This document shows positions 58,546 through 58,848 of a stretch of DNA of 64,000 bases, in pieces. Origin of the DNA: Candidatus Nomurabacteria bacterium (GTDB lineage Bacteria > Patescibacteriota > Minisyncoccia > Phycocordibacterales > UBA918); the NCBI GenBank assembly GCA_020632075.1, contig JACKGH010000002.1:75454-139453 (forward strand), in the 5' to 3' direction. The position numbers and the translations under genes are program-made. The first letter of the stretch is position 1. Each line of letters starts with the position of its first letter. The notes under the pieces were generated by a model. That model made no database searches. It was not told where the DNA came from and saw only the letters and a list, made by a program, of their open reading frames with translations.

Positions 58546-58601
58546 GTGATGCGCCACCGCCTTTAGCTCAGGGTAAGTCGAGCGAGAGATGTGTGTCGTA
58601 T

Positions 58602-58848
58602 CCGTCCTTAGCTCAGTTGGCTAGAGCGCAGAACTTACAAAATGAACTGAGTGGAGAAAGAGATTCTTCTCTTTCGAGTCACGAAGTGAAATTTTGTATC
58701 AATTAAATATTTTGTCCGTGCGTAGCTCAGTTGGTTAGAGCGCGGAGCTTATACCTCCGTGGTCCCAGGTTCGAATCCTGGCGCACGGACAAAATATTGA
58801 ATTGATATACCTCTGTGGTCCCTGGTTCGAATCCAGGAGGACGGACCA
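58602..58848 (+). tRNA. tRNA-Val(TAC) gene interrupted after the anticodon loop by a 170-nt insertion (5' part 58602..58640, 3' part 58811..58848, CCA encoded)
   Basis: 5' part CCGTCCT TA GCTC AGTTGGCTA GAGC G CAGAA CTTACAA. 3' part CTCTG TGGTC CCTGG TTCGAAT CCAGG AGGACGG A CCA. The acceptor strands are perfectly complementary (7/7). Neither half has a partner nearby. Confidence 0.65.
58716..58789 (+). tRNA. tRNA-Ile(TAT), complete and nested inside the tRNA-Val insertion
   Basis: CCGTGCG TA GCTC AGTTGGTTA GAGC G CGGAG CTTATAC CTCCG TGGTC CCAGG TTCGAAT CCTGG CGCACGG A. All stems are perfect. Flanked by an imperfect inverted repeat of about 19 bp that extends the acceptor helix. Confidence 0.8.

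What the first reader, a model, noticed from the sequence alone, without database searches (positions are those of the whole stretch)
58548..58848. tRNA-Val(UAC) split in the anticodon loop by a 170-nt insert that carries a complete tRNA-Ile(UAU) on a 19-bp helix
The 5' half of tRNA-Val (acceptor CCGTCCT, D-arm, anticodon loop CTTACAA) lies at 58602..58640. The matching 3' half (TGGTC, T-arm, AGGACGG, A, CCA) lies at 58811..58848. The acceptor halves are perfectly complementary, and neither half has another partner. A flawless tRNA-Ile(TAT) sits between them. Its acceptor stem is prolonged by an imperfect inverted repeat of about 19 bp (gtatcaattaaatattttg against caaaatattgaattgatac, one mismatch and a 2-nt bulge); a hairpin lies further 5' within the insert. 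The two tRNAs are clearly paralogous, with near-identical D-arm and T-arm. Three readings are possible: a tRNA gene with an unusual tRNA-containing intron, of precursor-processing or mobile-intron type; a tRNA-Val inactivated by insertion of a mobile tRNA-Ile minicassette; or a rearranged tandem pair. A further tRNA-like 5' fragment (58551..58584, GCTC-AGGGTAAGTC-GAGC D-arm) lies just upstream.
Basis: seen in the sequence. Interest (0 to 1): 0.8.

Follow-up and report, generated by a model that had tools for sequence, protein, structure and literature searches.

The report
Nested tRNA-Ile genes, not split tRNA-Val
An intact isoleucine tRNA gene sits inside the anticodon loop of an older, now broken, copy of the same gene in a tiny-genome (CPR) bacterium, and relatives carry the same arrangement two to four layers deep, which has not been described for bacterial tRNA genes in the papers I could search.

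Summary
Two complementary tRNA halves (58602-58636 and 58807-58845) flank a 170-nt insert that carries a flawless tRNA-Ile(UAU) (58716-58789) on a roughly 20-bp helix.

The label is wrong. The outer gene is a second tRNA-Ile(UAU), not tRNA-Val(UAC). It is split between U34 and A35; "UAC" is U34 plus the first two bases of the insert. Removing the insert restores CTTATAC here and in 14 related nested units. The outer exons are 69/74 identical to the uninterrupted tRNA-Ile of related species at the same locus.

The insert is two adjacent helices, P(a) and P(b), both supported by covariation. The inner tRNA sits at the tip of P(b) or P(a), or is absent.

There is no group I core and no bulge-helix-bulge motif. 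Every locus keeps one perfect tRNA-Ile, and that perfect copy is the inner one wherever genes are nested. Most outer copies show mismatches, indels or lost halves. Other small inserts in the outer copies occur in both orientations, which points to DNA-level insertion.

Best reading: the resident tRNA-Ile gene was broken by an insert that brings a replacement copy, transcribed from the old promoter, and this happened repeatedly in Paceibacteria. A new kind of splicing is unlikely (about 0.08) but not excluded.

The parts
58517..58545 (+). Promoter-like element of the outer (resident) gene: TTGTTT, 17-nt spacer, TATAGT
   Evidence: The same motif (TTGnnn, 17 nt, [CG]nTATAGT) lies upstream of the outermost tRNA element in 44 of 57 tRNA-Ile copies of relatives. 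The generic sigma-70 scan did not call it.
58563..58601 (+). Remnant of a third, outermost layer: a D-arm fragment (TTAGCTCAGG) fused to the 5' arm of an insert of the type seen in L023 and L045
   Evidence: GGTAAGTCGAGCGAGAGATGTGTGTCGTAT resembles ACAGTGAG(T/C)CGAGCGAG.GA.GTG.G.AGTGT, which precedes the inner tRNA in L023 and L045. L082 has the complementary 3' part of such a layer.
58602..58636 (+). Outer tRNA-Ile(UAU), 5' part (positions 1-34, ends with U34)
   Evidence: Joined to 58807-58845, ARAGORN calls tRNA-Ile(tat). 69/74 identical to the uninterrupted tRNA-Ile of L030 and L022.
58637..58697 (+). Insert helix P(a): hairpin closed by ACAAAAT/ATTTTGT, with purine-rich internal loops
   Evidence: Predicted in the minimum-free-energy fold. 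The closing helix covaries across 15 loci, for example AAAT/ATTT, GAAT/ATTC, GTTC/GAAC, ATG/CAT and GTCC/GGAC.
58698..58715 (+). Insert helix P(b), 5' arm (ATCAATTAAATATTTTGT)
   Evidence: RNAalifold consensus with compensatory pairs. The third pair shows CG 7, GC 6, AU 1, UA 1.
58716..58789 (+). Inner, intact tRNA-Ile(UAU), taken to be the working gene
   Evidence: ARAGORN. Rfam tRNA 71.5 bits, E = 2.6e-15. No stem mismatches.
58790..58806 (+). Insert helix P(b), 3' arm (CAAAATATTGAATTGAT; A73 at 58789 pairs with U58715)
   Evidence: The mid-helix A.G mismatch is conserved in WIN, L024, L020, L082 and L300 (read from the sequences).
58807..58848 (+). Outer tRNA-Ile(UAU), 3' part (A35 to A73), followed by CCA
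   Evidence: The acceptor strand AGGACGG is complementary to 58602-58608.
58850..58888 (+). Strong GC-rich hairpin directly after the outer 3' end, a probable terminator
   Evidence: AAAACAGCGGGCGGGCCC-TTCG-GGGCCCGCCCGCTGTTTT. It was picked up only as spurious hairpin-family matches in Rfam. The simple terminator scan missed it because the T-run has only 4 T. Equivalent hairpins follow the outermost tRNA in L300, L306, L298 and L299.

Best explanation
The locus is a working tRNA-Ile(UAU) gene nested inside the anticodon loop of an older tRNA-Ile(UAU) gene.

**Shown.**
- The older (outer) gene is split exactly between U34 and A35, at the TA of its anticodon, by a 170-bp insert.
- The insert is two adjacent helices. 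The second helix carries a complete tRNA-Ile(UAU) at its tip.
- The outer gene is the one that relatives have at this position behind the same promoter.
- The inner gene is always intact. Outer copies are intact in a few species and damaged in most.

**Inferred.**
- The outer gene's promoter and the hairpin after its 3' end give one precursor.
- The long helix is cut or opened first, most likely by RNase III. RNase P and 3' trimming then release the inner tRNA, which is the AUA decoder.
- The outer halves are not rejoined. They are relics kept for a while because they hold the promoter, the terminator and a stable fold around the inner gene.
- The insert arrived as DNA, as a cassette that destroys the resident gene and supplies its replacement.
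- The same event recurred in the inner copy, which produces layers.

How the cassette inserts is not resolved. The flanks are compatible with TA target duplication, and also with homologous exchange that uses the tRNA halves as arms.
For: **Identity and cut site.** Cutting at 34/35 restores CTTATAC and an ARAGORN tRNA-Ile. The WIN outer exons are 69/74 identical to the plain tRNA-Ile of L030 and L022.

**Empty sites in relatives.** The closest relatives L298 and L299 have an uninterrupted tRNA-Ile at this locus. L299's acceptor, CCATCCA, is that of the outer gene in L300, L013 and L014.

**Promoter placement.** The conserved promoter always sits before the outermost element, 30-60 nt from plain genes and 100-230 nt from nested inner genes.

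**Synteny.** tRNA-Ile(tat) lies upstream of the HlyD gene in 44 of 49 species-representative loci.

**Recurrence of nesting.** Nested units occur in L012, L013, L014, L020, L023, L024, L026, L045, L056, L081, L082, L300, L306 and L309.

**Decay of outer copies.** Stem mismatches are 0 in 14 of 14 inner or plain copies. Among 11 outer copies scored, three have 0, WIN has 1, one has 2, and six have 4 or more or carry indels. Further outer copies lack a half altogether: L008, L020, L309, and the WIN third layer.

**One intact copy everywhere.** No locus was found in which the only tRNA-Ile is an interrupted one.

**DNA-level insertion of the other inserts.** The T-loop insert at 55/56 is 78-83% identical to the reverse complement of the insert at 57/58, against about 50% in the same orientation. 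The second anticodon-loop insert is the reverse complement of the T-arm insert, 75% against 51%.

**No known splicing signature.** No group I or other ribozyme family at E <= 10. No bulge-helix-bulge motif, and the insert ends in U.

**Processing.** The abstract of PMC9433436 (seen) states that pairing which extends the acceptor stem inhibits bacterial RNase P. This fits a need for prior cleavage of the long helix.
Against: - **Some outer copies are too well kept for simple decay.** L045 and L306 have no defect, L300 only a G58, WIN one mismatch. In L082 the outermost copy still has perfectly matching acceptor halves about 500 nt apart.
- **Both helices look selected.** They keep their pairing through compensatory changes and keep purine-rich internal loops. 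This points to selection on the RNA, or on a hairpin DNA form.
- **The two helices always occur together.** The whole insert has no terminal inverted repeats.
- **No dispersed copies.** No copy of any insert type was found outside tRNA-Ile loci in 796 kb, which is unlike ordinary miniature transposons.
- **No enzyme candidate.** No transposase, integrase or homing endonuclease was seen next to the locus.
- **No RNA data.**
Confidence: 0.6

Rival explanations
1. The precursor architecture itself is selected. The outer tRNA-like fold and helices P(a) and P(b) form a processing or regulatory scaffold for the inner tRNA. They could recruit RNase P or RNase III, protect the precursor, or act as a tRNA-like decoy. 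The outer halves would then be functional RNA parts without being a decoder.
For: Covariation in both helices and conserved internal loops. Outermost acceptor halves stay complementary over long distances in WIN, L045, L306, L300, L013, L012, L081 and L082. Free-standing tRNA-Ile genes in L301, L037 and L043 also have complementary leader and trailer.
Against: Many species of the same clade do without it and have a plain tRNA-Ile: L298, L299, L015, L018, L021, L022, L030 and L041. Outer copies lose whole halves (L008, L020) or have their loops destroyed (L012) without loss of the inner gene.
Confidence: 0.15
2. The insert is a true intron of a new kind. The precursor is cut at U34/A35 on both sides of the insert and the outer exons are ligated, for example by an endonuclease plus an RtcB-type ligase. 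One transcript would then yield two tRNA-Ile(UAU) molecules.
For: Removing the insert restores a canonical tRNA without loss or gain of a base in WIN, L045, L306, L300 and L024. P(a) and P(b) abut each other and both splice sites, which brings the exon ends together. Group I introns are common in Patescibacteria tRNA genes (PMC13011429).
Against: No group I core, no terminal G and no bulge-helix-bulge motif. Every locus also has an intact copy. Six of the 11 outer copies scored have four or more stem mismatches or indels, and others lack a half. Companion inserts occur in both orientations, which an RNA intron cannot do.
Confidence: 0.1
3. No mobile element is involved. The pattern arose in place, from tandem tRNA-Ile duplicates reshaped by deletions, inversions and gene conversion between repeated halves.
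For: Clear secondary rearrangements exist. L082 has an orphan 3' half. In L056 the D-loop insert is fused to the anticodon arm. In L014 and L024 the 3' ends are converted to the inner type together with the trailer. L025, L037 and L043 have tandem copies.
Against: Deletions between tandem copies cannot place a whole gene between position 34 and position 35 of another with base-exact restoration of the loop, and do so repeatedly. Inner and outer genes often differ by compensatory stem changes and match the plain genes of other species.
Confidence: 0.1
4. One reading: the outer gene is tRNA-Val(UAC) with an intervening sequence at or near the canonical 37/38 position.
For: Cutting at 37/38 also gives a cloverleaf that ARAGORN calls Val(tac).
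Against: The body is that of the clade's tRNA-Ile(UAU), 69/74 identical. In L081 the insert begins ATA rather than ACA, so no UAC exists there. The 3' junction always keeps ATA(C/G), the Ile loop remainder.
Confidence: 0.03

Closest known systems
Group I introns in bacterial tRNA anticodon loops (cyanobacterial tRNA-Leu(UAA); Patescibacteria tRNA-Asn and tRNA-Asp at 35/36, Nakagawa et al. 2026, PMC13011429)
   Same: A bacterial tRNA gene interrupted inside the anticodon loop, in the same phylum. Removing the insert restores a normal tRNA.
   Different: No match to the group I model or to any ribozyme family. The insert ends in U, not G. Without the inner tRNA the insert is only about 96 nt. 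It carries a whole tRNA gene, and an intact copy is always present as well.
Archaeal disrupted tRNA genes (multiple bulge-helix-bulge introns, split and permuted tRNAs)
   Same: Interruptions in the D-loop, anticodon loop and T-loop of one gene, with up to three per gene in relatives (L300, L025).
   Different: The host is a bacterium (RecG, HlyD/FtsX/ABC neighbours). No bulge-helix-bulge motif at any junction option. The inserts occur in both orientations.
Integrative elements that use a tRNA gene as attachment site and restore the gene from their own copy of its 3' part
   Same: A tRNA gene is the target, the incoming DNA brings the replacement, and a displaced fragment is left behind. Arrays of orphan 3' halves downstream of the intact gene occur in L008, L017, L040, L054 and L081.
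   Different: Here a whole tRNA gene is brought in and nested. Both halves of the old gene remain, on either side. The insert is 170 bp with no integrase, and there is no identical core repeat at the two junctions.
Hairpin-forming miniature insertion elements with TA target duplication (Correia/NEMIS of Neisseria; IS630/Tc1-type MITEs). This comparison rests on my own knowledge of those elements.
   Same: In every unit examined, TA flanks each of the two helices: CT[TA]-P(a)-[TA]-P(b)-[TA]TAC. P(a) begins CA(G/A) and ends TG in most units; L081 and L082 differ. Both fold into long hairpins in RNA that would suit RNase III.
   Different: The elements are not dispersed: no copy was found outside tRNA-Ile loci in 796 kb. 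The two helices are always together, the whole insert has no terminal inverted repeats, and the cargo is a tRNA gene.

Membership tests
tRNA (Rfam RF00005), inner gene 58716-58789 | Cloverleaf that scores above the curated threshold, with a 7-nt anticodon loop | tested here: met
   71.5 bits against a gathering score of 29, E = 2.6e-15. ARAGORN calls Ile(tat). No stem mismatches.
tRNA-Val(UAC), the label given to the outer gene | The anticodon UAC belongs to the exons, and the body is a Val tRNA rather than another isoacceptor | tested here: not met
   Both cuts fold. However, the body is 69/74 identical to the working tRNA-Ile(UAU) of L030 and L022. All relatives restore CTTATAC at 34/35. In L081 the insert begins with ATA, so no UAC is present there. 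No genuine tRNA-Val of this clade was available for comparison.
Group I intron | Conserved catalytic core (match to Rfam Intron_gpI) | tested here: not met
   No match at E <= 10 in 58000-59400, nor at E <= 5 in L025 5300-6100.
Group I intron | Intron ends with G, and the 5' exon ends with U paired to G in P1 | tested here: not met
   The insert ends in U at every junction option. The 5' exon does end in U.
Archaeal/eukaryal tRNA intron | Bulge-helix-bulge motif: two 3-nt bulges separated by a 4-bp helix at the splice sites | tested here: not met
   The central helix has 0-2 of 4 pairs for all five junction options. An exhaustive scan of 58620-58664 against 58785-58819 found no candidate.
Archaeal/eukaryal tRNA intron | A splicing endonuclease and an RtcB-type ligase encoded in the genome | not testable with these tools
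   Only 64 kb of the genome is available.
TA-duplicating miniature inverted-repeat element (IS630/Tc1-type, Correia-like) | TA duplicated on both flanks | tested here: inconclusive
   CT[TA]...[TA]...[TA]TAC is seen in WIN and all 14 relatives. The same letters are also the closing pairs of the two helices, so the pattern does not discriminate.
TA-duplicating miniature inverted-repeat element (IS630/Tc1-type, Correia-like) | Terminal inverted repeats at the two ends of the element | tested here: inconclusive
   The arms of each helix are inverted repeats. The ends of the whole insert (CAAAATG... and ...AATTGA) are not.
TA-duplicating miniature inverted-repeat element (IS630/Tc1-type, Correia-like) | Many dispersed copies in the genome | tested here: not met
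   blastn of all insert types against the window and 74 loci (796 kb) hit only tRNA-Ile loci. Whole genomes were not searched.
Integrative element at a tRNA attachment site | An integrase gene next to the site, and identical direct repeats of the tRNA segment at both ends | tested here: not met
   The neighbours are an S8 peptidase, HlyD, FtsX and an ABC ATPase. The small ORFs at 53842-55936 have no recombinase domain. The outer 3' half differs from the inner 3' half by compensatory stem changes, so it is not a repeat.

The most novel reading that the evidence does not exclude
The two-helix insert is a new class of bacterial tRNA intervening sequence, neither group I nor bulge-helix-bulge. It would be excised at U34/A35 with ligation of the outer exons, so one precursor would yield two tRNA-Ile(UAU) molecules, one of them released from inside the intron of the other.
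Probability: 0.08. Interest if true: 0.95.

Novelty: new variant of a known kind. Interest (0 to 1): 0.65.

Why it matters
- **Annotation.** tRNA finders report only the inner gene. The outer halves invite a false "split tRNA-Val" call, and contigs of the same species that carry the two flanking genes all stop short of this locus.
- **Evolution.** If the cassette reading is right, this is a minimal selfish or replacement element whose only cargo is the gene it destroys. It can re-enter its own cargo and build layered genes. That would be a compact model for gene replacement and addiction in very small genomes.
- **RNA biology.** The locus offers conserved, covarying helices and several site-specific small inserts in the D, anticodon and T loops of one tRNA family. 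Their insertion chemistry is unknown and could be tested with simple assays.

Tried and rejected
- **Rfam scans.** Permissive thresholds over the locus and over a relative returned only tRNA and spurious hairpin families.
- **ARAGORN with intron search up to 400 nt.** It does not call the outer gene.
- **Group I hallmarks and bulge-helix-bulge geometry.** Neither is met.
- **Phage origin.** The annotated phage collection gave only generic tRNA similarity. Two specific junction patterns gave 0 hits in viral contigs.
- **Metagenome scan.** Of the 120 stretches it returned, only L081, L082 and L094 were true hits; the same pattern run on viral contigs added none.
- **Exact-protein look-ups of the flanking genes.** They returned only contigs that stop before the locus. 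The window's own HlyD protein is not on record.
- **Recombinase or transposase domains.** None in the ORFs between RecG and the locus.
- **Generic promoter and terminator scans.** They found nothing. The promoter claim rests on conservation in relatives.
- **Simple inversion as the source of the oppositely oriented T-loop inserts.** Rejected, because inversion between the T-stem arms would give ATTCG...AA, not the observed TTCG...AAT.
- **Literature.** Searches for nested tRNAs, tRNA introns in Patescibacteria, and disrupted bacterial tRNA genes found only the group I paper.

Full report
**What is in the window**

- A tRNA 5' half begins at 58602: CCGTCCT TA GCTC AGTTGGCTA GAGC G CAGAA CTT.
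- A matching 3' half ends at 58845: ATAC CTCTG TGGTC CCTGG TTCGAAT CCAGG AGGACGG A. CCA follows.
- The acceptor strands pair 7/7.
- Between the halves lies a flawless tRNA-Ile(UAU). ARAGORN places it at 58716-58790, and Rfam tRNA scores 71.5 bits against a threshold of 29.
- The inner acceptor stem is continued by a 20-position helix with a single A.G mismatch (58698-58715 with 58789-58806).
- A 61-nt hairpin (58637-58697) fills the rest of the insert.
- The 261-nt stretch folds into nested cloverleaves with z = -8.65 against shuffles.
- No other tRNA fragments occur in the 64 kb.

The neighbours are an S8 peptidase, an HlyD-type adaptor, an FtsX permease, an ABC ATPase and RecG, so the host is a bacterium. 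Homologues of the HlyD protein are named Candidatus Nomurabacteria, Kaiserbacteria or Paceibacteria, which places it in the CPR/Patescibacteria.

**The outer gene is tRNA-Ile(UAU), not tRNA-Val(UAC)**

I fetched 50 loci from species-representative genomes through an alignment of HlyD homologues, and more through exact-protein look-ups.
- A tRNA-Ile(tat) upstream of HlyD is conserved in 44 of 49 loci.
- The nested arrangement recurs in L012, L013, L014, L020, L023, L024, L026, L045, L056, L300, L306 and L309. It also recurs in two metagenome contigs, L081 and L082.
- In every case the 5' junction reads CTT followed by the insert, and the 3' junction reads insert followed by ATA(C/G) plus the anticodon-stem strand. 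Removing the insert between U34 and A35 therefore restores CTTATAC, the loop of the inner tRNA-Ile.
- "TAC" is U34 plus the first two insert bases. In L081 the insert begins ATA, so no TAC exists there.
- ARAGORN calls the in-silico joined WIN outer gene Ile(tat) when cut at 34/35, and Val(tac) when cut at 37/38. The sequence alone is therefore ambiguous.
- Comparison settles it. The WIN outer exons are 69/74 identical to the uninterrupted, working tRNA-Ile(UAU) of L030 and L022, which share its CCGTCCT/AGGACGG-type acceptor.
- The closest relatives by HlyD identity, L298 and L299 (68-69%), have a plain tRNA-Ile plus terminator at this place. L299's acceptor, CCATCCA, is that of the outer gene of L300, L013 and L014.
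- A conserved promoter (TTGnnn, 17 nt, TATAGT; WIN 58517-58545) always precedes the outermost element.

The outer gene is therefore the resident gene of the locus. The inner gene is the newcomer and depends on the resident promoter.

**Anatomy of the insert**

The insert is two directly adjacent helices.
- P(a) begins with the first insert base, ACA...UGU.
- P(b) follows without a spacer, AU(C/G)...(G/C)AU, and ends at the last insert base.

On a gapless alignment of the junction cores of 15 units, 87.6% of cells pair, against 27-56% when partners are slid. The covariation score is 0.40 against 0.15 in shuffles, with 0 of 500 shuffles reaching it. P(a) positions 4-7 and the third pair of P(b) show three to four pair types. 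RNAalifold recovers P(b) independently, with 14 compensatory pairs overall.

The inner tRNA sits in different places:
- at the tip of P(b) in WIN, L012-L014, L020, L024, L026, L056, L082, L300, L306 and L309;
- at the tip of P(a) in L023, L045 and L081, where P(b) is reduced to AUC-GNRA-like-GAU;
- nowhere in a second copy in L025, where the insert is about 90 nt.

Layers alternate. In WIN and L082 the second layer lies in an insert of the L023 type belonging to a third layer. WIN 58563-58601 is the 5' remnant of that third layer.

**Is the insert spliced out?**

Known signatures are absent.
- No group I model or any ribozyme family matches at E <= 10.
- The insert ends in U.
- No bulge-helix-bulge motif can be drawn at any of the five possible junctions.

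Three comparative observations argue that the outer copies are not needed as tRNAs.
- Every locus with enough sequence keeps one perfect tRNA-Ile. I found no locus whose only copy is interrupted.
- Stems of 14 of 14 inner or plain genes have no mismatch. Of 11 outer genes, three are perfect (L045, L306, and L300, which has G58 in the T-loop). WIN has one mismatch (A31.C39), L024 has two, and six have four or more mismatches or indels. Other outer copies have lost a whole half: L008, L020, L309, and the third layer in WIN.
- Outer copies have collected other small inserts in the D-loop, T-arm and T-loop, and two of these families occur in both orientations. The T-loop insert at 55/56 (L306, L008) is 78-83% identical to the reverse complement of the insert at 57/58 (L024, L019, L014), against about 50% in the same orientation. 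The two sites are the same bond of the palindrome TTCGAA read on opposite strands. A second anticodon-loop insert is the reverse complement of the T-arm insert, 75% against 51%. An RNA intron cannot work in both orientations, so these are DNA insertions.

**How it most likely works**

Shown:
- the nesting;
- the exact cut site;
- the resident status of the outer gene;
- the integrity of the inner gene;
- the decay of outer copies;
- the covariation of the helices.

Inferred:
- There is one precursor, from the resident promoter to the hairpin at 58850-58888.
- The acceptor-extending helix must be cut or opened first, probably by RNase III. Pairing that extends the acceptor stem inhibits bacterial RNase P according to the abstract of PMC9433436.
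- RNase P and 3' trimming then release the inner tRNA-Ile.
- The outer halves are not rejoined.

The insert would have arrived as DNA. The letters CT[TA]-P(a)-[TA]-P(b)-[TA]TAC, and P(a) termini CA(G/A)...TG, are what TA-duplicating elements leave behind. Inserts at two other TA sites of the tRNA appear to fit this as well: T8A9 in L029 and L042, and GG[TA]GAGC for the D-loop insert.

Several observations do not fit an ordinary miniature transposon.
- P(a) and P(b) always occur together.
- The whole insert lacks terminal inverted repeats.
- No copy of any insert type lies outside tRNA-Ile loci in 796 kb.
- No transposase is nearby.

An alternative route is homologous exchange of a whole nested unit, using the tRNA halves as arms. 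That would also explain chimeric outer acceptors in L014, L024, L026 and L056. I cannot decide between these routes.

**What speaks against the relic reading**

- Some outer copies are very well kept (L045, L306, WIN, and the outermost copy of L082).
- The helices and their purine-rich internal loops are conserved.

This leaves room for a selected precursor scaffold (about 0.15), or, less likely, for real splicing by an unknown mechanism (about 0.1 as a rival, 0.08 for the full two-tRNAs-from-one-precursor version).

**Comparison with what is known**

[quoted passage not shown] It does not mention tRNA-Ile or nesting. Searches for nested or disrupted bacterial tRNA genes found nothing else.

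The locus shares features with tRNA-targeting integrative elements, where the incoming DNA supplies the replacement. It also shares features with hairpin-forming TA-specific miniature elements. It fails defining tests of each, so I file it as a new variant rather than as a member.

**Limits**

- There are no RNA data and no whole genomes.
- The single metagenome scan was wasted on a loose pattern.
- The sample of nested units is about 15 species.
- Some outer exon boundaries in relatives were set by eye from the printed sequences.

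Noticed in passing
L306 2300-2357 (also L008 5873-5929); reverse orientation in L024 about 4796-4855, L019 about 5806-5862, L300, L014, L026, L009: A roughly 58-bp element (GACCTAG...CTTGTGGTG) is inserted in the T-loop palindrome TTCGAA of outer tRNA-Ile copies, in either orientation. 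It appears at 55/56, or as its reverse complement at 57/58, with no target duplication. L009 carries both orientations in one T-loop.
   Followed up: partly
L082 5231-5326 (T-arm, 53/54), L012, L025, L034, L040; reverse orientation in the anticodon loop of L019, L037, L309, L056: A roughly 95-bp element (TGAGG...ACAAGGTGTACAG..CTGTAAGA) occurs in the T-arm of outer copies. Its reverse complement occurs in the anticodon loop of others (75% against 51% identity).
   Followed up: partly
L300 about 412-480, L014, L025 5625-5697, L037, L043, L082: A roughly 70-75-bp structured insert sits in the D-loop at GG[TA]GAGC. It has a conserved GAAAGTAAACTTTC hairpin and a TTCGGAG...CTCCTCA stem. A homologous sequence forms the 5' leader of plain tRNA-Ile genes in L029, L033, L038 and L042, after an orphan acceptor strand CCGCCTG-TA.
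   Followed up: no
window 56186-56200 (+) and 56015-56066 (-); same motif upstream of the tRNA locus in L008, L013, L020, L298-L301, L305, L306: Sequences identical to the 3' tail of 16S rRNA (GATCACCTCCTT, the anti-Shine-Dalgarno sequence) are conserved between RecG and the tRNA-Ile locus. The minus-strand copy in the window is followed by a terminator hairpin and weakly resembles Betaproteobacteria toxic sRNA (19.5 bits, E = 0.2). This may be a small anti-SD RNA.
   Followed up: partly
window 53839-58425: In L298, L299 and L306, RecG lies directly upstream of the tRNA-Ile intergenic region. The window has about 4.6 kb in between, holding the S8 peptidase and several small ORFs without Pfam matches. 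This suggests an insertion next to the tRNA locus.
   Followed up: partly
L001-L007 (contigs with proteins identical to those of the window): All public contigs returned for the window's exact FtsX and S8 proteins end before the tRNA-Ile locus. The repeated tRNA halves probably break short-read assemblies there.
   Followed up: no
L019 5386-5682 and L043 about 2445-2505: Runs of N lie exactly inside the nested tRNA-Ile regions of two relatives. They are either masked stretches or scaffold gaps, and they hide part of the structure there.
   Followed up: no
L037 about 5600-5800; L029, L032, L042 downstream of tRNA-Ile: Repeated GTCCG(A/C)G...GAGCGA... motifs follow the terminator. L037 has three tandem copies of a roughly 50-nt unit (gcggcgtttgtccgcgacgaagcgatgtttacgagcaagtcaggggcaa). 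Long inverted repeats pair the tRNA 3' end (CGGACAAA...) with ...TTTGTCCG. Function unknown.
   Followed up: no
L081 about 2005-2400 (contig Ga0208648_1000396, not next to a HlyD gene): A low-GC contig from another lineage carries at least three to four nested or repeated tRNA-Ile(UAU) layers with the same insert architecture. The phenomenon therefore extends beyond the HlyD-linked locus.
   Followed up: partly
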